Source: an uncultured archaeon (GTDB lineage Archaea > Iainarchaeota > Iainarchaeia > Iainarchaeales > Iainarchaeaceae). Taken from it: a stretch of 32,000 bases of DNA. Both the position numbers and the translations under genes were made by a program. Shown here piece after piece: positions 1-32,000 of this stretch (the stretch's first letter is position 1; every line of letters begins with the position of its first letter). A model generated the notes under the pieces. It was not told the origin of the DNA and ran no database searches. It saw only the letters and a program-made list of their open reading frames with translations. The stretch covers positions 125,842 to 157,841 of the forward strand of contig CAZNZM010000001.1 in assembly GCA_964577555.1 (NCBI GenBank), written 5' to 3'.

Positions 1-2205
1 TTCTACTCCGAGTTTTTTTGCTGTTTGTTTTATTATTTCCTTTTGGTCCCTGAATTCATTTATATTACCCACTAATGGTATTTCTATTTCTGGTATTGCA
101 ATTACTCCTTCTTTGGCGACGTTAAGGGCTGCTTCAAATATTGCTGTGGCCTGCATTTCCGTGATTTCAGGATATGTTATGCCGAGTCTGCAGCCCCTAT
201 GACCAAGCATTGGATTGAATTCATGAAGCGATGAAGATATTTCTTTTACTTTCTCAACAGTTATGCCCATTTCTTTTGCAAGTACCTTCATTTCGTCTTC
301 CTCTTTCGGCAAAAACTCGTGCAAAGGGGGGTCAAGCAATCTTATTATAACAGGGAGGCCATCCATGGCTTTGAAAATTCCTTCAAAATCCTGTCTTTGA
401 AATGGCAACAATTTAGAAAGAGCTTTTTTTCTTTCCGATTCCGTCGTAGCGAGTATCATTTCTCTTACAGACTTTATTCTTTCGCCTTCAAAAAACATGT
501 GTTCTGTCCTGCAAAGACCTATTCCTTGGGCTCCATAGTTTCTTGCGACAAGAGCATCTTTAGGGGTGTCAGCATTGGTTCTTATTTCAAGCTTCCTGAA
601 AGAATCCGCCCACTCCATTAATTCTCCAAAAGAACCAGAAAGGCCTGGTTCAACCAATGGCAATTCTCCTTTGAAAACTTCTCCGGTTGCGCCATCAATA
701 GAAATATAATCACCTTCCCTGAATTCCAAATTCTTTTTCGGAACCGCAAATTTTCTTTCTGACTCGTGAACCCTTATATCTTCACAACCCGCTACACAAG
801 ATTTGCCCATTCCCCTGGCAACAACAGCCGCATGGGAAGTCTTGCCGCCTCTTGCAGTGAGAAAACCTTGTGAAACATGCATGCCTTCTATATCTTCCGG
901 ACTGGTTTCGGTTCTGACTAAAATTACTTTTTCGCCATAACCAGCTAATTCTGTTGCGCGTTCTGCGGTGAAAACAACTTTCCCAACAGCAGCACCGGGC
1001 GAAGCCGCTATTCCTTTTGCAATAGGCTCAGAGTTCTTTTTCGCGTCAGGATCAAGTTGTTTATGCAAAAGCTGGTCAAGTTGTTCTGGTTTTACACGTA
1101 AAATAGCTTCTTCTTTTGTTATCAGTTTTTCTTTAACCATGTCAACAGCAATCTTTACTGCTGCATGCGCAGTTCTTTTACCGGTTCTTGTTTGAAGCAA
1201 GTAAAGTTTTCCGTTTTCAAAAGTGAATTCAAAATCCTGCATTTCACGGTAATGCTTTTCAAGTTTGTCATAAATCTTCAGCAATTCAGCATACATTTTT
1301 GGATGGGTTTTTTTCATTTCGTCAATTGGCATAGGCGTTCTTATGCCTGCAACAACGTCTTCGCCTTGCGCATTTACCAAAAACTCGCCATAATGCACTT
1401 TTTCCCCTGTTGATGGATCCCTCGTGAAAGCAACTCCTGTGCCAGAATTTTCCCCCATATTGCCAAAAACCATTGCTTGGACATTGACTGCTGTTCCGGC
1501 ATCGTTTCTCAAATTATGTATCCTGCGATAGCTTACTGCCCTGTTTGACATCCACGAACCAAAAACAGCATTAATTCCCATTTCCAACTGCTTCATAGGT
1601 TCCGATGGAAAACCGATTTTCTTTTCTTTCAAAACTATTTCCTTATAAGTAGCCACCAACTCCTTAAGGTCTTCAGTAGACAAATCAGTATCAAACTTAA
1701 CTCCTTTTCTTTCTTTTAATTCGTGAAGCGCCTTTTCAAATTTAGCGTGCTCTATGCCCATTACAACATCGCCAAACATTTGTATAAACCGCCTGTAAGA
1801 ATCCCAAGCAGCTCTTTCGTTTTTTGTTTGCTTTGCAAAAGCAATTACTGTTTCGTCGTTCATCCCGAGATTTAACACAGTATCCATCATGCCGGGCATT
1901 GAAACATAAGAACCGGAACGCACCGAAACAAACAAAGGCTTTTTTTTATCCCCGAATTTTTTCCCGGTTTTCTTTTCCAATCTTTTCATCGCCTTGGCTA
2001 TTTCTTCAGCAAGCCCTTTTGGCCATTTTTTATTGTGTTTATAAAATTCCTTGCAAGCTTCAGTGGTTATGGTAAATCCGTAGGGCACTTTAAGTCCCGC
2101 ATTAGTCATTTCAGCAAGCTGTGCCCCCTTGTTTCCCAAAAGAAATTGCGATTCTTCAGTATTAGGATTTTTTGATTCGTCAAACATGTACACGTACTTT
2201 GCCAT
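1..2205 (-). CDS. ppdK: Pyruvate phosphate dikinase, partial (C-terminus beyond window edge)
   Basis: The reverse strand is open from ATG at 2205-2203 to position 1 (735 codons, in frame). N-terminus reads MAKYVYMFDESKNP..LGNKGAQLAEMTNAGLKVPYGFTITTEAC. The in-frame motif GGKTSHAAVVARGMGKSCVAGC (about 800-867) is the phosphohistidine site of PEP-utilising enzymes. AGAGGTGG Shine-Dalgarno lies just upstream. The ORF is missing from the track, probably because no stop lies inside the window. Confidence 0.9.
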   Translation of the reverse strand, partial: MAKYVYMFDESKNPNTEESQFLLGNKGAQLAEMTNAGLKVPYGFTITTEACKEFYKHNKKWPKGLAEEIAKAMKRLEKKTGKKFGDKKKPLFVSVRSGSYVSMPGMMDTVLNLGMNDETVIAFAKQTKNERAAWDSYRRFIQMFGDVVMGIEHAKFEKALHELKERKGVKFDTDLSTEDLKELVATYKEIVLKEKKIGFPSEPMKQLEMGINAVFGSWMSNRAVSYRRIHNLRNDAGTAVNVQAMVFGNMGENSGTGVAFTRDPSTGEKVHYGEFLVNAQGEDVVAGIRTPMPIDEMKKTHPKMYAELLKIYDKLEKHYREMQDFEFTFENGKLYLLQTRTGKRTAHAAVKIAVDMVKEKLITKEEAILRVKPEQLDQLLHKQLDPDAKKNSEPIAKGIAASPGAAVGKVVFTAERATELAGYGEKVILVRTETSPEDIEGMHVSQGFLTARGGKTSHAAVVARGMGKSCVAGCEDIRVHESERKFAVPKKNLEFREGDYISIDGATGEVFKGELPLVEPGLSGSFGELMEWADSFRKLEIRTNADTPKDALVARNYGAQGIGLCRTEHMFFEGERIKSVREMILATTESERKKALSKLLPFQRQDFEGIFKAMDGLPVIIRLLDPPLHEFLPKEEDEMKVLAKEMGITVEKVKEISSSLHEFNPMLGHRGCRLGITYPEITEMQATAIFEAALNVAKEGVIAIPEIEIPLVGNINEFRDQKEIIKQTAKKLGVE

Positions 2206-2285
2206 CAAGCCACCTCTATGAAAACATATTATTTACAACACTAAAAAAGAATTTAAAAGGAAAGCAAGCCAAAAAAAATGGCGAT

Positions 2286-3017
2286 TTACAAATTGGTTTG
2301 CCTGGACGTAACAATTTTTGTTGATATTCCTACAATTAAGAGTTTATCATTGTCTCTTTTAATAGTAAATTTTGTAAAAAAGTAAGGGTTTTGTTCAGGG
2401 TAAGGCAAACTGAAAACAAGTATTTGAGATTTTATTTTTTCAAAATAAGGCAATAATTCTTTTGCCAAATCTTGCGGCAATTTAGGATTTGAGGAAAGAC
2501 TATATGTTAAGTCTCTAAATTTACTAAATAAACTGGAAGGCAAGTTAATAATCTTTGAAGGATCTTTTACATGAGGATTTCCAGAACTCCAAATAACTAT
2601 TTCATAATCTTGTATTACATAGTTGTCAGGACCTTGCCCCGTCTTTTTAACATATATTATTATTTTGGCATTTCCACCGTTAAATTTTCTGTCAGAGTAT
2701 ATTTTCGCAACCGTACCAACAGGATGCTTACGAAGATTCTCATACACAAATTTTTCAAATTCTGGGGAGCGAAAATACTCTGCAAATAAGGCAGAATTTC
2801 TAACGAGCTTGTTAGGATGTTTACTGCCTTTGACAGCAAATTTTTCAAGATAATTGATTTTTTCACTAGGCGGATGAAATTTTGCAAAAACTGTTTTACC
2901 AGGCCATTTTAAAGATAGAACTTTTTGTGGGTTTTTTTTGACTTTTGGCTCATTTCGTGGCCTAAAAAGTCTAGGAATAATTGAAGGCTTAATTGGTTTT
3001 CTGGCTTTGGGCAACAT
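2286..3017 (-). CDS. Hypothetical protein, 243 aa, basic N-terminus (MLPKARKPIKP...)
   Basis: Longest ORF in its interval. The overlapping + strand ORFs are short and low-complexity. No family recognised by eye. Confidence 0.5.
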   Translation of the reverse strand: MLPKARKPIKPSIIPRLFRPRNEPKVKKNPQKVLSLKWPGKTVFAKFHPPSEKINYLEKFAVKGSKHPNKLVRNSALFAEYFRSPEFEKFVYENLRKHPVGTVAKIYSDRKFNGGNAKIIIYVKKTGQGPDNYVIQDYEIVIWSSGNPHVKDPSKIINLPSSLFSKFRDLTYSLSSNPKLPQDLAKELLPYFEKIKSQILVFSLPYPEQNPYFFTKFTIKRDNDKLLIVGISTKIVTSRQTNL

Positions 3018-3314
3018 TCAGATTATAAAATTCCGCCAAAAATAAAAATAAATAGCATTTTGTCTTTTCTTGGCTAGCCATTTTTTGAGATGATTGGCAG
3101 ACTGTTTTTCAAGCCAAATTTTGTTTTAGCTAACCGTTTTTTTGAGGGTTTTTTAGGAAATTTGTTTTATTTTTTAGTTTTTTGGGTTTATTTTTGCAAG
3201 CCAATTTAGGCAATTTTATTTTTTAAATTCAAATTGTTTTTTGCTATGGTTTCTTGATTTTTTTAATTTACAACAAACGATAAACCTATTTAATTATAAG
3301 CAAATGAATTTTAT
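3018..3314. repeat. T-rich spacer carrying TTGGC-type core motifs (minor member of the dispersed spacer family)
   Basis: TTGGCTAGCCA at 3070-3080 contains the perfect 10-bp palindrome TGGCTAGCCA. Other cores: TTTTTCAAGCCAAATT (about 3106-3120) and TTTTTGCAAGCCAATTT (3191-3207). The last is the reverse complement of AAATTGGCTTGCAAAAA seen at 11.8 kb and 21.7 kb. Confidence 0.5.
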
Positions 3315-3317
3315 TTG

Positions 3318-4076
3318 ATGAAGATTTTTATAACTGGACGAAGGCAAAACTCAATAGCTTACGAAACCGGTTTAAGGGCAATCAATTTTATCAAATCAAA
3401 AAACCTAGACTTTGAAATTGACAAAAAATTTATCAACATAAAGGGAAAGTCAAAGAATAATTTTGGAAATTCTGCTGACATAGTTGTTTGTTTTGGCGGG
3501 GATGGAACGCTTCTTTCGACTTTCCACTCTTTGAAAAAAGAAATTCCAGTAATTGGAATAAATTGCGGAAGCAAGGGTTTTCTGCAAGCCTATCAAAAAG
3601 ACGAAATTGAAAAGGCAATTGAAGATATTATTTCAAAAAATATAAAATTTGAAAAAAGAACAAGAATATTAGCAAAAATAGACGGCAAAATAGTTGGAGA
3701 AGCTTTGAATGAAGTATTAATTGTTCCTGAAAAATCCGGAAGGCTTTTGCATTACACTATTGAAATTGGAAAATATTTGTCAAACGAGGCTGGCGACGGA
3801 CTTATAATAGCAACTCCCACAGGTTCCACTGCACATGCTCTTTCTGCCGGCGGGCCTATAGTAAAAGGCAACGCATCGGTTTTTGTAGTGGTTCCAATAA
3901 ACCCTGTTGATTGGAAGCACAGACCTCTTGTAATAAATGACCATGAAAAAATTGTTATTGCTGGGTTTGAAAAAATGAAAGCAGAAGCGGTAATTGATGG
4001 ACAAAAATGGTTCAAAATAAAAAACAAAATAGAGCTTGAAAAAGGGAAACATGTTTTGTTAGGAACAAAGAACTGA
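3318..4076 (+). CDS. nadK: NAD kinase
   Basis: GGDGTLL motif (VVCFGGDGTLLSTF), TPTGSTAHALSAGGPIV motif, about 250 aa. The track starts at TTG 3315; ATG at 3318 is more likely. Confidence 0.85.
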   Translation: MKIFITGRRQNSIAYETGLRAINFIKSKNLDFEIDKKFINIKGKSKNNFGNSADIVVCFGGDGTLLSTFHSLKKEIPVIGINCGSKGFLQAYQKDEIEKAIEDIISKNIKFEKRTRILAKIDGKIVGEALNEVLIVPEKSGRLLHYTIEIGKYLSNEAGDGLIIATPTGSTAHALSAGGPIVKGNASVFVVVPINPVDWKHRPLVINDHEKIVIAGFEKMKAEAVIDGQKWFKIKNKIELEKGKHVLLGTKN

Positions 4077-27345: not shown

Positions 27346-28644
27346 ATGCTTGATATTAGGTTTGTCAGGGAAAATTCTGGTTTGATAAAGGCTGATCTTG
27401 AAAAGCGTGGGGATTTTGAGAAGCTTAAGTGGCTTTCGGATTTGCTTGATTTGGATAGGAAGTATAGGGGTATTTTGCAGGAGATTGAGTCTTTGCGTGC
27501 TAGCCGTAACAAACTTACTAATGAAATTAATGTTTTGATGAGCCAGAAAAAGGATTTTAAGGATAAGATTGTTGAAGCTAAGAAGCTTCCCGGTAAGATA
27601 AAATCTTTGGAGTCTGCTTTGGTTCCTATTAAGGAAAAGATTGATTGGTATTTGATGAGGCTTCCTAATATTTTGCACGAGTCTGTGCCTGTTGGAAAGG
27701 ATGATTCTGATAATGTTGTTGTCAAGGAGGTTGGTCAGAAGATTTCTAATGTTAATATGCCTCCTCATGGTGATCTTTTGGAGTTGAATGGTTGGGTTGA
27801 GTTTGAGAGGGCTGCAAAAATTTCTGGTTCTGGCTTTTATTTTTTGAAAGGTGATTTTGCTTTGCTTTCTCTTGCGTTGGAGCGTTTTGCAGTTGATAGG
27901 TTGTTGTCTAAGGGTTACACTTTGGTTTTGCCTCCTTTTTTAATGAATAGGGTTTCTTATGAAGGTGTTACTGATTTGGCTGATTTTGAGAGTGTAATGT
28001 ATAAAATTGAGTCTGAGGATTTTTATTTGATTGCTACTTCTGAGCATCCGTTGGCTGGTATGTTTGCTGGTGAGATTTTTCTTGAATCTGAGCTTCCTTT
28101 GAAATTGGTTGGTTTGAGTCCTTGTTTTAGGCGGGAGATTGGCAAGCACGGTGTTGATACTAGGGGGCTTTTTAGGGTTCATCAGTTTAGCAAGGTTGAG
28201 CAGTTTGTTTTTTGTAGGCCTGAAGATTCTTGGGCTTTTCATGAAGAGATTATTTTGAATGCCGAGGAGATTTTTTCAGCTCTTGGGCTTGCTTTTAGGC
28301 GTGTGAATATTTGTACTGGGGATATTGGAACTGTTGCTGCGAAGAAGTATGATTTAGAGGTTTGGATGCCTCGTGAGAGTAGGTATCGGGAGGTTGTTTC
28401 TGCTTCTAATTGTACTTCTTATCAGGCTGTGCGTTCTAATATAAAATATAGGAAGCGGGACGGTTCGAAGGAGTATGTTCATACTTTGAATAGTACTGCT
28501 ATTGCTGTTTCAAGGGCTTTGCGTGCTATTGTTGAAACTTATTGGGATGGTTCTAAGCTTTTGGTTCCTAATGTTTTATTGCCTTATATGGGTGGTGTGA
28601 AAGAGATTTTTCCTGTGAAGAAGATTTCTGGTAAAGGGGTGTGA
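27346..28644 (+). CDS. serS: Seryl-tRNA synthetase
   Basis: N-terminal coiled-coil MLDIRFVRENSGLIKADLEKRG. Class II motifs: FYFLKGDFALL, CFRREIG, RVHQFSKVEQF, GTVAAKKYDLEVWMP, NSTAIAVSRAL. Confidence 0.9.
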   Translation: MLDIRFVRENSGLIKADLEKRGDFEKLKWLSDLLDLDRKYRGILQEIESLRASRNKLTNEINVLMSQKKDFKDKIVEAKKLPGKIKSLESALVPIKEKIDWYLMRLPNILHESVPVGKDDSDNVVVKEVGQKISNVNMPPHGDLLELNGWVEFERAAKISGSGFYFLKGDFALLSLALERFAVDRLLSKGYTLVLPPFLMNRVSYEGVTDLADFESVMYKIESEDFYLIATSEHPLAGMFAGEIFLESELPLKLVGLSPCFRREIGKHGVDTRGLFRVHQFSKVEQFVFCRPEDSWAFHEEIILNAEEIFSALGLAFRRVNICTGDIGTVAAKKYDLEVWMPRESRYREVVSASNCTSYQAVRSNIKYRKRDGSKEYVHTLNSTAIAVSRALRAIVETYWDGSKLLVPNVLLPYMGGVKEIFPVKKISGKGV

Positions 28645-28695: not shown

Positions 28696-28843
28696 GGGCC
28701 CGTAGCTCAGCCTGGTAGAGCACTTGCCTTTTAGCCCTTTCTTTTTTCATGGGAAAAGCGTTTTTTTGCGTTTTTCTTTTTTTGTTTGGGAAAAGTTTTG
28801 GGAGGCTAGCAAGGTGTCCCGGGTTCAAATCCCGGCGGGCTCG
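28696..28843 (+). tRNA. tRNA-Lys(UUU) with a 74-nt intron at 37/38 (intron 28734-28807)
   Basis: GGGCCCG-TA-GCTC-AGCCTGGTA-GAGC-A-CTTGC-CTTTTA | intron | A-GCAAG-GTGTC-CCGGG-TTCAAAT-CCCGG-CGGGCTC-G. Nt 32-35 (CTTT) can pair with GAGG just before a 3-nt CTA bulge, giving a BHB-like motif. Confidence 0.8.
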
Positions 28844-28870: not shown

Positions 28871-31192
28871 ATGTCTGGTGTTGTTCAGGAAAATGTTGTT
28901 AAGGAGCATTGGCCTGTTCATGTTGCTAAGAAGATAATTGAGTTTAAGGGGGATTTGCCTGTTTATACTATTGCTGCAGGTATTACTCCTAGTGGTGTTG
29001 TTCATATTGGTAATTTTAGGGAGATAATGACTGTTCATTTGGTAGGAGTTGCTTTGCGTAAGCTTGGTAAGAATGTTAGGTTTATTTATTCTTGGGATGA
29101 TTATGATGTTTTTAGGAAGATTCCTAATAATTTTCCAAATAAGGAGTTGCTTGAAAAGTATTTGAGGCAGCCTATTGTTGATGTGCCTGATCCTTTTGGT
29201 TGTCATTCTAATTATGCGGAGCATAATGAAAAGGTTCTTGAGGAGGAACTTCCTTCGATGGGTATTTTTCCTGAGTTTATTTATCAGTCTAAAAAGTATC
29301 GTTCTTGTGTTTATGCTGAAGGCATGAAAAAGGCTCTTCTTAACAAGGATAAGATTAAGGTTATTCTTGATAAGTGGCGTGCTGATGATTTGGAGGAAAA
29401 TTGGAATCCTGTTAGGGTTTTTTGTGAGAGGTGTAATACTGATAGGACTAAGGTTGAGGGTTATGATGGTGCTTATTCTTTGACTTATTCTTGTGAGTGT
29501 GGGTTTAGGGATACTTTTGATTTTAGAAAGAAGGGTATTGCAAAGTTGCAGTGGCGTGTTGATTGGCCTATGCGTTGGGATTTTGAGAAAGTCAAGTTTG
29601 AACCTTCTGGGAAGGAGCATTCTTCTGAGGGGGGTAGTAATACTACTGCTAATGAGATAGTCAGGGAGGTTTATGGTTATGAGCCTCCTTTTCATATTAT
29701 GTATGAGTTTATTTCTATTAAGGGAACTGGCGGTAAGATGTCTAGTTCTAAGGGTAATACTATTGATTTGAAGGAGATGAAGTCTGTTTATGAGCCGTGT
29801 GTGATAAAGTATATTTTTGTTAGGCCTATTCCTTCAAAGTCTTTTGAGGTTTCTTTTGATGGTGATGTTATTGCTATTTATGATTCTTTTGATCGTTTGG
29901 AGCGTGTTTATTTTGGTTTGGAGCCTTCTGATAAGGAGAATACTATTGAGCAGTTGAAATCTATTTATGAATTTAGTGCTGTTGAGATTCCAGCATCCAT
30001 GCCTTTTCAACCTGGTTTTAGGCATATTACTACTATTCTTCAATTGAATTTGTTTGATGAAGCCAAGACTTATGATTATTTTAAGAGTGGTGTGAAAACT
30101 TCTTTTGATGATGTTCGTCTTAAGACTAGGATTTCTTGTGCGAAGCATTGGCTTTTGAATTATGCGCCTGATCAGTTTGTTTTTAGGGTTCAGGACAGGG
30201 CTTCTGATTCTGCTTTGCGGATGCCTGTTTTGCACAAGTCAGCTCTTAGGGAGTTTTCTGATTTGTTGTTTGATGGGATGTCAGAGAATGAGATTGGCGA
30301 GGTGTTCAAAAAGGTTGCAGAGTCGAATAATATTCCTTTTGTTGATTTGTTTAGGTCTTCTTATTTGCTTTTACTGGGCAAGGAGCGCGGTCCTAAACTT
30401 TTTCAATTGATTGAGAATGTTGGTGTTCAAAAGTTTAAGTCTTTGGTTGTTGATCTTCTTTCAAGAAATGTTGAGGAAAAAAAGCGTGTTTTGTTGCCTG
30501 GGCAAAAAGAGCTTTTGTCAAAGGTTGGTTTTTTGGTTGATGTTGAGGTGAAGTCTGTTTTTCCTTCTGCAAGGGTTGGTGTTTTGTTTGTTGAAGGTAT
30601 TGATAATTCGAGGGATATTTCTGGTGTTTTACCTCTTATTAGGGCAGAGGAGCAGTCTTTTAGGGAGAAGTATTTTGGCAAGGATTTGTCTTCTTTGAGG
30701 GGGATTAAGGTTTGGCGTGAGGCTTATTCTTTGTTCGGAGCCAAGCCAAAGGATTATAAGTCTTCTATTGAGGCTCTTTCTAAGAGGGTTTTGAAGGGAG
30801 AGCAATTGCCCAGTATTAATCCTCTTGTTGATATTTACAATTATATTTCTCTTAAGTATGTTTTGCCTGTTGGTGGTGTTGATTTGTCTAAGGTTGTAGG
30901 GGACATTAGGCTTTGTTTTGCTAATGGTAGTGAGAATTTTGTTAAAATGGGTTCTAGCAATGTTGAGCATCCTGAAAAAGGAGAGGTTATTTACAAGGAT
31001 GATAAAGAGGTTATTTGCAGGCGTTGGAATTGGCGGGAATCTGAAAATACTAAGATAACTTCTTCTACTTCAAGGGCTTTGATTTTTGTTGAGAGTCTTG
31101 TTGTTGATGATTTGCTTGAAGATGCTTTGATTGAGCTTGCCGGCCTTGTTGAAAATTATTTGGGTGGCAGTGTTTTGAAGTTTGTTGTTTAA
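28871..31192 (+). CDS. lysS: Lysyl-tRNA synthetase, class I, fused to a C-terminal B3/4 domain
   Basis: Class I motifs: HIGNFRE (HIGH variant) and GGKMSSSKG (KMSKS variant), with an archaeal LysRS-I-like core of about 540 aa. The C-terminal 230 aa or so (about 30490-31189) carry the B3/4 pattern: VWREAYSLFGAKPKDYKSSIEALSKRVLKGEQLPSINPLVDIYNYISLKYVLPVGGVDL...GEVIYKDDKEVICRRWNWRESENTKIT. ATG 28871 is preferred over TTG 28850. Confidence 0.85.
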   Translation: MSGVVQENVVKEHWPVHVAKKIIEFKGDLPVYTIAAGITPSGVVHIGNFREIMTVHLVGVALRKLGKNVRFIYSWDDYDVFRKIPNNFPNKELLEKYLRQPIVDVPDPFGCHSNYAEHNEKVLEEELPSMGIFPEFIYQSKKYRSCVYAEGMKKALLNKDKIKVILDKWRADDLEENWNPVRVFCERCNTDRTKVEGYDGAYSLTYSCECGFRDTFDFRKKGIAKLQWRVDWPMRWDFEKVKFEPSGKEHSSEGGSNTTANEIVREVYGYEPPFHIMYEFISIKGTGGKMSSSKGNTIDLKEMKSVYEPCVIKYIFVRPIPSKSFEVSFDGDVIAIYDSFDRLERVYFGLEPSDKENTIEQLKSIYEFSAVEIPASMPFQPGFRHITTILQLNLFDEAKTYDYFKSGVKTSFDDVRLKTRISCAKHWLLNYAPDQFVFRVQDRASDSALRMPVLHKSALREFSDLLFDGMSENEIGEVFKKVAESNNIPFVDLFRSSYLLLLGKERGPKLFQLIENVGVQKFKSLVVDLLSRNVEEKKRVLLPGQKELLSKVGFLVDVEVKSVFPSARVGVLFVEGIDNSRDISGVLPLIRAEEQSFREKYFGKDLSSLRGIKVWREAYSLFGAKPKDYKSSIEALSKRVLKGEQLPSINPLVDIYNYISLKYVLPVGGVDLSKVVGDIRLCFANGSENFVKMGSSNVEHPEKGEVIYKDDKEVICRRWNWRESENTKITSSTSRALIFVESLVVDDLLEDALIELAGLVENYLGGSVLKFVV

Positions 31193-31251: not shown

Positions 31252-31389
31252 GGGCCCGTAGCTCAGGCTGGTAGAGCACTTGATTCTTTAAAGTTTAATG
31301 CTTTTGGAAGGTGTGGCTCTTATGGTTTTTTACCAGTCTGGTTGGCCGGAATTACCAAGGTGTCGCGGGTTCAAATCCCGCCGGGCTCG
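31252..31389 (+). tRNA. tRNA-Lys(CUU) candidate with a 64-nt intron (about 31290-31353)
   Basis: The body is nearly identical to tRNA-Lys(UUU): GGGCCCG-TA-GCTC-AGGCTGGTA-GAGC-A-CTTGA-TTCTTT | intron | A-CCAAG-GTGTC-GCGGG-TTCAAAT-CCCGC-CGGGCTC-G. TTCT pairs with GGAA before a TTA bulge. Anomalies: A31/C39 mismatch and U at position 37. Confidence 0.6.
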
Positions 31390-31485: not shown

Positions 31486-31646
31486 GAGGAAGTAGCTCAG
31501 CCTGGGAGAGCACTCGTCAGGCACAAGCGGCTTTTTAGTGGCTTGTTTGGCCTGGGTGAAGCTGAAGATGGTACAACGTTGGTTGTTTTATCTTCGTTGC
31601 TCCCTTGGTTACCGGGGTGTCGCGGGTTCAAATCCCGCCTTCCTCA
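31486..31646 (+). tRNA. tRNA-Phe(GAA) candidate with two introns (about 31513-31550 at 26/27 and 31562-31610 at 37/38)
   Basis: Perfect acceptor GAGGAAG/CTTCCTC plus A73. D arm GCTC-AGCCTGGGA-GAGC, T arm GCGGG-TTCAAAT-CCCGC. The only 5-bp partner for the 3' anticodon-stem strand CCGGG (31612-31616) is CCTGG at 31551-31555. That partner is followed by GTGAAG, which with A31611 gives the loop GUGAAGA. Confidence 0.5.
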
Positions 31647-32000
31647 TTTTTTGAATTTTATTTTGTCTAGTTTGTTTTTTTGTTGTATTTTTTTGTTTTT
31701 TTTTAGCCGAGTTTTTTTTGTCAAGTTGTTTGTTTTTGTGAGCCAATTTTTTATCATTTTTCTTTTTTTTTTGAATTCTTTTTTTTGTCAAGTTGTTTGT
31801 TTTTGTGAGCCAATTTTTTGTCATTTTTCTTTTTTTTGAATTCTTTTTTTTTGTCAATTATTTTTTTTAATTGAATTTTGTTTTTTTTTGCAAGCCACTT
31901 TTTTTTAATTTTTTATTGTTTTTTGTTTTTTTTGATTTGTTTATTTTTTTGTGAGCCAATTTTTTATCATTTTTCTTTTTTTTTTGAATTCTTTTTTTTG
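31647..32000. repeat. T-rich (on +) spacer with tandem 67-nt units of the dispersed family, running off the window
   Basis: The unit TTTTGTGAGCCAATTTTTT(A/G)TCATTTTTCTTTTTTTT(TT)GAATTCTTTTTTTTGTCAAGTTGTTTG occurs at about 31733-31799, at about 31800-31858, and again from about 31948 to the window end. A partial copy lies at 31711-31732. TTTTTGCAAGCCAC is at about 31886. Confidence 0.8.

What the first reader, a model, noticed from the sequence alone, without database searches (positions are those of the whole stretch)
28871..31192. Class I LysRS fused to a B3/4 (PheRS-beta editing-like) domain
A normal-length LysRS-I core carries HIGN and KMSSSKG motifs. It is followed in the same frame by a module of about 230 aa with the hallmark B3/4 pattern: WREAY..FGAKP..Y.SS.EAL.KRVLKG..LPSINPLVD.YN..SLKY.LPVGG.DL, then GEV.Y.D....CRRWNWRES. 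In PheRS this fold is the post-transfer editing site. Free-standing B3/4 proteins are of unclear function. A covalent fusion to LysRS is not an arrangement I know to be described. It suggests a cis-acting editing, tRNA-binding or proofreading module for Lys-tRNA. A tRNA-Phe gene lies about 300 nt downstream, which may be coincidence.
Basis: partly seen in the sequence, partly recalled or inferred. Interest (0 to 1): 0.65.

Follow-up and report, generated by a model that had tools for sequence, protein, structure and literature searches.

The report
LysRS fused to CtdA-type tRNA deacylase
A tiny-genome (DPANN, Iainarchaeum-like) archaeon makes its only lysine-tRNA-charging enzyme as one protein with a CtdA-type "eraser" domain that removes wrong amino acids from tRNA, and the same domain stays attached to lysine enzymes of both unrelated classes, which suggests an undescribed proofreading step for lysine.

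Summary
Window 28871-31192 (+) is one open frame of 773 aa. Residues 1-532 are a complete class I LysRS (TIGR00467, 511 bits; HIGN and KMSSS present). A variable linker of about 20 aa follows. Residues 554-773 match Pfam B3_4 (6e-29).

The module is not PheRS-like. It belongs to the CtdA family of canavanyl-tRNA(Arg) deacylases: PDB 9MKL/9F7E at E about 1e-33, and the AF2 model (pLDDT 96) superposes on them at TM 0.81-0.86, against 0.5-0.59 for PheRS-beta.

The fusion is real. The same junction occurs in a second strain on independent contigs and in at least 19 related genomes. dN/dS is 0.11 for the module and 0.11 for the core.

Elsewhere the same module is fused only to LysRS-I (N- or C-terminal), LysRS-II and ArgRS. 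One same-order archaeon carries a module from this very clade on a class II LysRS.

My best reading (about 0.55) is a tethered post-transfer editing domain that clears tRNA-Lys mischarged with a long cationic Lys/Arg analogue. Two caveats: Glu118, essential in CtdA, is Val here, and the pocket does not differ from that of ArgRS-fused modules.

No paper in the searched library describes the fusion. This scan had already noted the same architecture in another genome.

The parts
28871..31192 (+). Whole fusion gene: class I LysRS joined to a CtdA-type B3/4 deacylase module; 773 aa plus stop
28871..30466 (+). Class I LysRS core, residues 1-532: Rossmann catalytic domain (PF01921, residues 12-371) plus helical anticodon-binding part
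   Evidence: PF01921 at 1.8e-119. TIGR00467 covers residues 13-524 at 511 bits. This is the only LysRS in the genome; tblastn finds no LysRS-II.
29003..29014 (+). HIGN, the class I 'HIGH' signature (residues 45-48)
   Evidence: H45, I46 and G47 are invariant in alignment A3
29735..29755 (+). KMSSSKG, the class I 'KMSKS' loop (residues 289-295)
   Evidence: K289, S293 and G295 are invariant in A3
30467..30529 (+). Variable linker, residues 533-553
   Evidence: The linker is 17-52% identical among orthologues, against about 70% for the core and about 59% for the module. pLDDT is below 50 at residues 535-538. Free-standing homologues begin to align at about residue 554.
30530..31189 (+). CtdA-family B3/4 aminoacyl-tRNA deacylase module, residues 554-773
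   Evidence: 9MKL at 7.7e-34 and 9F7E at 5.2e-33; pLDDT 96. TM 0.81-0.86 to CtdA; dN/dS 0.113.
30836..30841 (+). Tyr656-Asn657, equivalent to CtdA Y104/N105 (catalytic; next to the ester bond)
   Evidence: mutagenesis data in PMC12268091 and PMC12449066
30872..30883 (+). Gly668-Gly669-Val670-Asp671, equivalent to CtdA G116-G117-E118-N119. The Glu118 equivalent is Val in this species; Asp671 is invariant among the fused modules.
   Evidence: Val670 is also present in the second strain.
31016..31039 (+). Cys716-Arg-Arg-Trp-Asn-Trp-Arg-Glu723, equivalent to CtdA C166...Q173 (pocket wall and basic rim for the CCA end)
   Evidence: roles of C166 and Q173
31091..31093 (+). Glu741, equivalent to CtdA E191 (acidic floor of the pocket; essential in CtdA)
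28696..28843 (+). tRNA-Lys(UUU) with a 74-nt intron at position 37/38. It ends 27 nt before the LysRS start codon.
31252..31389 (+). Probable tRNA-Lys(CUU) with two introns: exon 1 at 31252-31282, 8-nt exon 2 at 31316-31323, exon 3 at 31355-31389
   Evidence: Rfam tRNA at 45.7 bits. The spliced form gives a perfect 74-nt cloverleaf that ARAGORN calls Lys(ctt). ARAGORN finds no other Lys(CUU) in the genome. The mini-exon is conserved in the second strain while the adjacent intron bases vary.
31486..31646 (+). Probable tRNA-Phe(GAA) with two introns: exon 1 at 31486-31516, 8-nt exon 2 at 31561-31568, exon 3 at 31612-31646
   Evidence: The spliced form gives a perfect cloverleaf called Phe(gaa). 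ARAGORN finds no other Phe(GAA) in the genome. In the second strain a G-to-A change turns the predicted U28·G42 pair into U-A.
27346..28644 (+). Seryl-tRNA synthetase gene immediately upstream, on the same strand
   Evidence: sequence. In the strain locus the gene is called with PF02403 and PF00587.

Best explanation
The gene encodes the organism's only lysyl-tRNA synthetase (class I), joined by a flexible linker of about 20 residues to a complete CtdA-family aminoacyl-tRNA deacylase. SHOWN: the fusion is genuine. It is conserved across a family of Iainarchaeum-like DPANN archaea. It is under the same purifying selection as the synthetase core. It has the CtdA fold, including the CtdA-specific helical insert. 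It keeps the residues CtdA needs next to the scissile ester (Tyr, Asn), one of the two acidic floor residues (Glu741), the specificity Cys, and 8 of the 9 positive charges on the rim thought to hold the CCA end. INFERRED: after LysRS charges tRNA-Lys, the 3' end of a mischarged product is sampled by the tethered module, either on the enzyme or on immediate rebinding. The deep pocket, hydrophobic on its walls and acidic at its floor, accepts a long cationic non-lysine side chain, and the ester is hydrolysed by an Asn/Tyr-positioned water. Candidate substrates are canavanine-like, oxa- or thia-analogues such as oxalysine or thialysine, homoarginine, or arginine. Lys-tRNA-Lys would be spared. Tethering supplies the tRNA-Lys specificity that the small module lacks. 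The trait is accessory: most relatives lack it, and some carry the module free-standing. This fits a protective function against an environmental or host-derived antimetabolite. Confidence that this is a real LysRS::CtdA-family fusion is about 0.97. Confidence in the cis or tethered Lys-editing mechanism is about 0.55.
For: 1. Domain identity. PF01921 and TIGR00467 cover residues 12-524, and PF03483 covers 615-741.

2. CtdA membership. phmmer gives 7.7e-34 and 5.2e-33 to 9MKL and 9F7E, against 0.011 to PheRS-beta. The AF2 model has pLDDT 96 and pTM 0.91. Foldseek gives TM 0.81-0.86 over 227-230 columns to CtdA, against 0.50-0.59 to PheRS-beta.

3. Functional residues. The equivalents of Y104, N105, S108, G116, C166, R167, R168, W169, R172 and E191 are conserved. 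Their roles are given in PMC12268091 and PMC12449066.

4. Not an artefact. A strain about 93.5% identical keeps the same uninterrupted junction on separate JGI and Logan contigs. Fifteen other protein clusters show the C-terminal fusion. Within the phylum, 19 other genomes hold the module in frames of 730-1044 aa. Four of five checked share that frame with PF01921.

5. Selection. dN/dS against the strain is 0.114 for the core and 0.113 for the module.

6. Partner specificity. In the two searches, modules with the CRRWNWRE pocket are fused only to LysRS-I (archaeal type at N- or C-terminus, bacterial type at C-terminus), LysRS-II (N- or C-terminus) and ArgRS. On the tree these represent several independent events.

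7. Partner swap. A same-order archaeon (G176) carries a module nested inside this LysRS-I-fused clade (SH-aLRT 98, 54-57% identity) on a class II LysRS (TIGR00499, 557 bits). No LysRS-I was found in that genome.

8. Pocket tracks the partner's amino acid. TyrRS-fused and MetRS-fused B3/4 modules have clearly different pocket residues. This genome carries such a second, divergent module on its MetRS.

9. Gene neighbourhood. The gene is flanked by both tRNA-Lys isoacceptors.
Against: 1. Glu118, whose E118Q mutant is inactive in P. canavaninivorans CtdA, is Val670 here and in the sister strain. Every other LysRS-fused module examined has Glu or Asp at this position. Activity or specificity in this species may therefore be altered or reduced, although the invariant neighbour Asp671 remains.

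2. The pocket residues of LysRS-fused and ArgRS-fused modules are essentially identical. A systematic scan found no convergent Lys-versus-Arg discriminating positions in the pocket. Nothing in the sequence points to a lysine-specific substrate.

3. Class I LysRS is not known to mischarge. It is reported not to charge ornithine (PMC8001834).

4. Every genome of the phylum with a match has exactly one CtdA-type module, either free or fused. That is what one would also expect if fused and free forms do one common trans-acting job.

5. Relatives also fuse an AlaX-like domain to the same LysRS (P0004, P0005). This could mean LysRS is merely a scaffold for trans-editing factors.

6. The full-length AF2 model is poor (pLDDT 75, pTM 0.47), so no geometry supports cis transfer of the CCA end. 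The C-terminus of LysRS-I lies in the anticodon-binding part, far from the active site (my own knowledge).

7. There is no biochemistry for any fused member.
Confidence: 0.55

Rival explanations
1. The module is a trans-acting deacylase carried as a passenger. It does the ordinary CtdA job, hydrolysing canavanyl- or another analogue-charged tRNA-Arg. It is fused to LysRS only for co-expression, stoichiometry or co-localisation with the translation machinery, not to proofread tRNA-Lys.
For: The pocket is indistinguishable from that of ArgRS-fused modules and close to characterised CtdA, including the Cys166 equivalent. This genome has an unfused ArgRS and no other CtdA-type gene, so this would be its only canavanyl-tRNA deacylase. 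There is exactly one module per genome, free or fused, across 31 positive genomes of the phylum. AlaX-like domains are also appended to the same LysRS in relatives. CtdA itself works in trans (PMC10018355).
Against: A neutral carrier should vary. In these searches the CRRWNWRE-type module is found only on ArgRS and on LysRS of both unrelated classes, in both orientations, through several independent events. Within this very clade the module moved from a class I to a class II LysRS, or the reverse. B3/4 modules on TyrRS and MetRS have different pockets, as expected for partner-matched editing.
Confidence: 0.25
2. The module is a non-catalytic appendage. It acts as an extra tRNA (CCA-end or acceptor) binding or chaperoning domain that raises the affinity of a reduced-genome LysRS for tRNA-Lys, as Trbp111/EMAPII-type domains do on MetRS.
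For: Glu118, essential in CtdA, is Val in this species and its sister strain. The basic rim is conserved. In this genome the MetRS C-terminus likewise carries a B3/4 module, where many MetRS carry a tRNA-binding domain.
Against: The Tyr/Asn pair, the specificity Cys, Glu191 and the pocket-lining motif are all retained, under dN/dS 0.11. All other fused orthologues keep Glu or Asp at position 118. One MetRS relative (P0251) has both B3_4 and the PF01588 tRNA-binding domain, so B3/4 is not simply a substitute for it. Most LysRS-I in the phylum work without the module.
Confidence: 0.12
3. The fusion is an assembly or gene-calling artefact, and two adjacent genes (lysS and a free-standing B3/4 gene) have been wrongly joined.
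For: Free-standing homologues exist in sister lineages. Read mapping could not be done. One JGI contig splits the gene into two called products, but at about residue 400 inside the core, not at the junction.
Against: The frame is continuous and the linker sequence is the same in independent assemblies from NCBI, JGI and Logan. At least 19 other genomes of the phylum hold the module in long open frames without stops. Purifying selection acts across core, linker and module.
Confidence: 0.02

Closest known systems
CtdA, canavanyl-tRNA(Arg) deacylase (P. canavaninivorans, PDB 9F7E; S. enterica, PDB 9MKL; the 'CtdA-1' clade of PMC12449066)
   Same: The fold is the same, including the CtdA-specific helical insert (TM 0.81-0.86). 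Sequence identity is 32-34% in the structural alignment and about 45% over the core block. The equivalents of Tyr104, Asn105, Ser108, Gly116, Cys166, the R167-R168-W169 motif, R172, Glu191 and most of the basic rim are conserved.
   Different: The module is covalently fused to a LysRS instead of free-standing. Glu118 is Val, Asn119 is Asp, Trp158 is Tyr, Gln173 is Glu (as in C. perfringens CtdA), Trp187 is Leu and Ile189 is Phe. The host is a DPANN archaeon, whereas PMC12449066 places all archaeal homologues in the divergent CtdA-2 clade that lacks Cys166. Substrate and tRNA target are untested.
B3/B4 editing domain of the PheRS beta subunit (post-transfer editing of Tyr/m-Tyr-tRNA-Phe)
   Same: It shares the B3/4 core fold and the Pfam family PF03483. 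The pocket sits in the same place, and one shared Asn lies next to the ester. Like the PheRS domain, the module is a cis element inside a synthetase.
   Different: Sequence similarity is only marginal (E 0.011; 11-15% identity; TM 0.5-0.59). The PheRS editing residues other than Asn are not shared with the CtdA family (PMC12449066). The genome has its own normal PheRS alpha and beta elsewhere.
ArgRS fused to a CtdA-type module (N-terminal; many uncultured archaea and bacteria, e.g. P0025 'Candidatus Micrarchaeota archaeon')
   Same: It has the same module with the same pocket (CRRWNWRE, YN, GG[ED]D), fused to the other synthetase for a long basic amino acid.
   Different: The partner is ArgRS, where the expected substrate (canavanyl-tRNA-Arg) is obvious. 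For LysRS no natural mischarged substrate is established. I found no paper describing the ArgRS fusions either.
Synthetase editing domains that also exist free-standing: ProRS INS and YbaK/ProXp, AlaRS editing domain and AlaX, archaeal ThrRS and ThrRS-ed
   Same: The evolutionary pattern is the same: one hydrolytic module is found free-standing in some lineages and fused to the cognate synthetase in close relatives.
   Different: The fold is different. LysRS has so far been regarded as lacking any post-transfer editing domain; LysRS-II uses pre-transfer cyclisation of Orn, Hcy and Hse (PMC8001834, and my own knowledge).

Membership tests
Class I lysyl-tRNA synthetase (TIGR00467 / PF01921) | Full-length profile match above the curated cut-off | tested here: met
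   TIGR00467 scores 511.3 bits (cut-off 147.55) over profile positions 2-509 of 515. PF01921 scores 399 bits.
Class I lysyl-tRNA synthetase (TIGR00467 / PF01921) | Class I signature motifs HIGH and KMSKS | tested here: met
   HIGN at 45-48 and KMSSS at 289-293, conserved in the orthologue alignment.
Class I lysyl-tRNA synthetase (TIGR00467 / PF01921) | Serves as the cell's LysRS, with no class II enzyme present | tested here: met
   tblastn with a LysRS-II query finds only a 25%-identical class IIb paralogue in a genome estimated 95.5% complete.
Class I lysyl-tRNA synthetase (TIGR00467 / PF01921) | tRNA-dependent lysine activation and Lys-tRNA-Lys synthesis | not testable with these tools
   Needs enzymology.
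CtdA family (free-standing B3/4 aminoacyl-tRNA deacylase) | Significant sequence similarity to characterised CtdA over the whole domain | tested here: met
   9MKL at 7.7e-34 and 9F7E at 5.2e-33. On the tree it groups with free-standing homologues.
CtdA family (free-standing B3/4 aminoacyl-tRNA deacylase) | CtdA-type B3/4 fold with the family-specific helical insert | tested here: met
   The AF2 model has pLDDT 96. Foldseek gives TM 0.81-0.86 over 227-230 of about 230 residues. Helices at module positions 53-129 occupy the place of the insert.
CtdA family (free-standing B3/4 aminoacyl-tRNA deacylase) | Catalytic and pocket residues Y104, N105, G116, C166, E191 | tested here: met
   Y656, N657, G668, C716 and E741.
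CtdA family (free-standing B3/4 aminoacyl-tRNA deacylase) | Second acidic floor residue, Glu118 (E118Q is inactive) | tested here: not met
   It is Val670 here and in the sister strain. All other fused orthologues have Glu or Asp.
CtdA family (free-standing B3/4 aminoacyl-tRNA deacylase) | Stand-alone, single-domain protein of about 230 aa | tested here: not met
   It is fused in frame to LysRS. Free-standing forms occur in sister lineages.
CtdA family (free-standing B3/4 aminoacyl-tRNA deacylase) | Hydrolyses canavanyl-tRNA(Arg) and spares Arg-tRNA(Arg) | not testable with these tools
   Needs deacylation assays.
PheRS-beta B3/B4 editing domain | Pfam B3_4 profile match | tested here: met
   PF03483 at 6.3e-29, covering profile positions 2-125 of 174.
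PheRS-beta B3/B4 editing domain | Embedded in a PheRS beta subunit (B1, B5 and later domains; partner alpha subunit) | tested here: not met
   There is no PheRS-beta context. TIGR00472 scores 21.9 bits against a cut-off of 402. The genuine pheS and pheT genes lie on contig C4.
PheRS-beta B3/B4 editing domain | PheRS editing-site residues (E. coli R244, H265, F267, A312, G318, E334) | tested here: inconclusive
   I did not align these directly. By transitivity through CtdA only the Asn is shared (PMC12449066). The structural match is weak, at TM 0.5-0.59.

The most novel reading that the evidence does not exclude
Lysyl-tRNA synthesis has a previously unrecognised need for post-transfer proofreading in some environments. 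CtdA-type B3/4 domains would then be general 'long cationic analogue' erasers whose tRNA target is set by the synthetase they are tethered to (ArgRS, or LysRS of either class). This archaeon would run three different B3/4-based editing sites, on LysRS, MetRS and PheRS. That would add LysRS, and possibly MetRS and TyrRS, to the list of synthetases with a dedicated hydrolytic editing domain. It would also point to an unknown natural lysine antimetabolite, for example an oxa- or thia-lysine or a guanidino-oxy compound, in DPANN habitats or hosts.
Probability: 0.4. Interest if true: 0.78.

Novelty: new variant of a known kind. Interest (0 to 1): 0.64.

Why it matters
LysRS of either class is textbook-listed among the synthetases without a post-transfer editing domain. 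CtdA (2023-2025) is known only as a free-standing bacterial canavanine-resistance factor.

Here the CtdA module is recurrently welded to both unrelated LysRS classes and to ArgRS, and it follows "the LysRS" through a class swap. This is a Rosetta-stone style argument that some cells proofread Lys-tRNA.

It gives the field a directly testable hypothesis: which analogue is cleared, and from which tRNA. It widens the CtdA family beyond legume-associated bacteria into DPANN archaea. It also offers compact natural cis-editing synthetases that could be useful for genetic-code engineering with lysine analogues.

Tried and rejected
I used independent assemblies and dN/dS instead.

2. The full-length AF2 model, meant to show whether the module can reach the acceptor end, had pLDDT 75 and pTM 0.47 with the core partly disordered. 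It was not interpretable and I did not use it.

3. I searched for specificity-determining positions that separate LysRS-fused from ArgRS-fused modules. Only three peripheral columns emerged (553, 692, 764) and none lie in the pocket. The idea that the sequence reveals a lysine-analogue-specific pocket is therefore rejected.

4. ARAGORN's default run misses the flanking tRNAs. With introns allowed, it calls the second and third tRNAs Glu(CTC) and Pro(TGG) in poor structures. I rejected those calls in favour of two-intron models that give perfect Lys(CUU) and Phe(GAA) cloverleaves.

5. I rejected the 'PheRS-like editing domain' label.

6. Literature searches for any description of LysRS-B3/4 or CtdA fusions found none. 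There were zero occurrences of 'fused', 'fusion' or 'LysRS' in the three CtdA papers. Combined-term searches returned zero or irrelevant papers. Subscription journals and InterPro architecture tables were not searchable.
Full report
OBSERVATION

Window 28871-31192 (+) is a single open frame of 773 codons ending in TAA. Pfam places the class I LysRS catalytic domain at residues 12-371 (PF01921, 1.8e-119). It places a B3_4 domain at residues 615-741 (PF03483, 6.3e-29). NCBIfam's archaeal LysRS equivalog TIGR00467 covers residues 13-524 at 511 bits.

WHAT THE C-TERMINAL MODULE IS

Searched against all PDB sequences, residues 534-773 hit two free-standing B3/4 proteins and barely touch PheRS. The hits are 9MKL at 7.7e-34 and 9F7E, "CtdA canavanyl-tRNA deacylase", at 5.2e-33. 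The best PheRS-beta hit is at 0.011.

An AlphaFold model of the module, built on 63 sequences, has pLDDT 96 and pTM 0.91. It superposes on both CtdA structures over their full length, with TM 0.81-0.86 and E about 1e-22. PheRS-beta chains reach only TM 0.50-0.59.

CtdA has been characterised. It hydrolyses canavanyl-tRNA(Arg) in trans and protects cells against canavanine (PMC10018355, PMC12449066). The pocket is a deep cavity with hydrophobic walls and two glutamates (E118, E191) at the bottom that hold the guanidinium group. Y104 and N105 sit next to the ester bond. C166 faces the oxa atom and tunes Can/Arg discrimination. A ring of basic residues probably holds the CCA end. The mutants Y104F, N105D/A, E118Q, E191V, G116H/W and Q173G are inactive.

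In the window's protein the equivalents are Y656, N657, S660, G668, C716, R717, R718, W719, R722, E723 (Q173 replaced by E, as in C. perfringens CtdA) and E741. Eight of nine rim charges are kept.

The one clear departure is E118, which is Val670 here. This is not a sequencing error, because a second strain has it too. All other LysRS-fused orthologues have Glu or Asp. The adjacent Asp671 is invariant.

IS THE FUSION REAL?

- The 90%-identity cluster contains a second strain with 50 amino-acid differences. It occurs on separate JGI and Logan contigs with the same uninterrupted junction.
- A database search with the module region returned 15 further LysRS-I proteins with the module at the C-terminus.
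- In whole-genome searches of the phylum, 31 of 215 genomes have the module. Twenty, including this one, hold it in stop-free frames of 730-1044 aa.
- Of five such genomes checked, four have the frame shared with the LysRS-I catalytic domain.
- Nei-Gojobori dN/dS between the two strains is 0.114 for the core, 0.171 for the linker and 0.113 for the module.
- Among orthologues the core is about 70-74% identical, the module 56-61% and the linker 17-52%.

The closest named genome is "Candidatus Iainarchaeum archaeon UBA10205", at 68% identity over the full length. The window's genome is 0.98 Mb, 34% G+C and estimated 95.5% complete. It is a DPANN archaeon.

COMPARATIVE ANATOMY

The module family is large. 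There are 3,321 representative clusters at E ≤ 1e-3, and most are free-standing proteins of about 235 aa.

Among the fused members recovered, the partners of modules with the CtdA-like CRRWNWRE pocket are as follows:
- ArgRS, mostly N-terminal, once C-terminal, and once with two tandem modules.
- Archaeal-type LysRS-I, both C-terminal and N-terminal.
- Bacterial-type LysRS-I, C-terminal.
- Class II LysRS, both C-terminal and N-terminal. All five tested exceed the TIGR00499 cut-off.

On a tree of the modules these fall into several separate clades interleaved with free-standing proteins. The fusions therefore arose repeatedly.

One same-order archaeon (G176) is especially informative. It has a class II LysRS (TIGR00499, 557 bits) carrying a C-terminal module that nests inside the clade of LysRS-I-fused modules (SH-aLRT 98; 54-57% identity). 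No LysRS-I was detected in that genome, which is 85% complete. The module has thus stayed with "the LysRS" across a swap between two non-homologous enzymes.

TyrRS-fused modules have clearly different pocket residues. So does the module on this genome's own MetRS (contig C2; NF008900, 649 bits; a family of 38 clusters in Diapherotrites). This is what one expects if the pocket is matched to the partner's amino acid. The genome also has a normal PheRS alpha/beta pair, an unfused ArgRS, and no free-standing CtdA or LysRS-II.

MECHANISM

The best-supported reading is a tethered post-transfer editing domain. LysRS charges tRNA-Lys. A mischarged 3' end carrying a long cationic non-lysine side chain is captured by the module's acidic-floored pocket and hydrolysed by an Asn/Tyr-positioned water. 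The tether provides the tRNA-Lys specificity.

That the module works at either terminus, on linkers of about 20 to about 50 aa, argues for rapid resampling rather than a fixed channel. This step is inference.

The substrate is unknown. By analogy with canavanine, which is oxa-arginine, candidates include oxa- or thia-lysine. Canavanine, homoarginine and arginine itself are also candidates.

Several findings weigh against this reading.
- Val replaces Glu118 in this species.
- No pocket difference separates LysRS-fused from ArgRS-fused modules.
- LysRS-I is not known to mischarge (PMC8001834).
- Each positive genome of the phylum has exactly one module, free or fused.
- Some relatives add an AlaX-like domain to the same LysRS (P0004, P0005, and a 1044-aa frame in G008). 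These last two points fit the rival view that LysRS merely carries trans-acting factors.

I weight the readings as follows: tethered Lys-editing 0.55, trans-acting passenger 0.25, non-catalytic tRNA-binding appendage 0.12, artefact 0.02.

NOVELTY

None of the three CtdA papers mentions a fusion, LysRS, or DPANN members of the Cys166-bearing clade. PMC12449066 assigns all archaeal homologues to the divergent CtdA-2 clade. Combined-term searches of the library found nothing. Database domain-architecture tables could not be consulted.

This scan had already reported the same kind of fusion in another genome (note e1-1462378). I reached the same conclusions independently here. New in this report are the class-swap case, the dN/dS result, the one-module-per-genome survey and the Val118 caveat.

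I file the finding as a new variant of a known kind.

SURROUNDINGS

The gene sits in a translation cluster.
- SerRS lies at 27346-28644.
- tRNA-Lys(UUU), with a 74-nt intron, lies at 28696-28843 and ends 27 nt before the start codon.
- A second tRNA lies 60 nt after the stop, at 31252-31389.
- A third tRNA lies at 31486-31646.

ARAGORN miscalls the last two. Removing two introns from each leaves an 8-nt middle exon (tRNA positions 31-38) and gives perfect 74-nt cloverleaves for tRNA-Lys(CUU) and tRNA-Phe(GAA). ARAGORN finds neither of these tRNAs anywhere else in the genome. The sister strain conserves the mini-exons while the neighbouring intron bases vary. The flanking pair of tRNA-Lys genes, noted earlier in e1-2520141, is confirmed.

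Noticed in passing
window 31252-31389 and 31486-31646: Two tRNA genes each appear to carry two introns that leave an 8-nt middle exon (tRNA positions 31-38: GCUCUUAU and GCUGAAGA). The spliced forms are perfect tRNA-Lys(CUU) and tRNA-Phe(GAA). ARAGORN with introns miscalls them Glu(CTC) and Pro(TGG). Bulge-helix-bulge motifs at the four junctions were not examined.
   Followed up: partly
own genome contig C2:47465-49624 (-), outside the window (locus L002): The genome's MetRS (728 aa, NF008900 at 649 bits) also carries a C-terminal B3/4 module. It is about 32% identical to the LysRS module and has a different pocket (VVGCHD; LCRM-DIKQ). The same fusion occurs in 38 protein clusters of Diapherotrites-like archaea and widely across the order. 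One relative (P0251) additionally has a PF01588 tRNA-binding domain.
   Followed up: partly
P0004 (1010 aa), P0005 (1021 aa); G008:C28 (1044-aa frame): Some close relatives have triple fusions of LysRS-I, the CtdA-type module and an AlaX-like editing-type domain with HxxxH and CxxxH motifs. The extra domain sits at the N-terminus in one and at the C-terminus in the other. The Pfam hits are weak (PF01411, PF07973).
   Followed up: partly
P0062, P0063, P0130, P0166: Bacterial-type TyrRS proteins carry an N-terminal B3/4 module of the same family but with a distinct pocket: Thr or Cys at position 166, His at 118 in three of the four, Pro or Asn at 189. This may be a different built-in editing activity.
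   Followed up: no
P0069 (1124 aa): An ArgRS with two tandem CtdA-type modules at its N-terminus.
   Followed up: no
L086 (G176:C35), ORF 1413-3593 (-): An archaeon of the same order has a class II LysRS fused to a module from the LysRS-I-fused clade, and no LysRS-I was detected in it. This implies replacement of the synthetase class with retention of the module.
   Followed up: yes
window about 31690-32000: A T-rich unit of about 60-65 nt is repeated at least three times downstream of the tRNA cluster (…GTCAAGTTGTTTGTTTTTGTGAGCCAATTTTTTATCATTTTTCTTTTTTTTTGAATTC…). Its function is unknown.
   Followed up: no
P0212 / P0213 (JGI contig of 4572 bp): In one metagenome assembly the same gene is called as two products, split near residue 400 inside the LysRS core. 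This is probably a local sequencing error or a strain-specific frameshift, and it is not at the domain junction.
   Followed up: no
window 27346-28644 (+): Seryl-tRNA synthetase lies directly upstream on the same strand. SerRS, tRNA-Lys, LysRS::CtdA, tRNA-Lys and tRNA-Phe therefore form a compact translation cluster, which is conserved in the sister strain (L084).
   Followed up: partly
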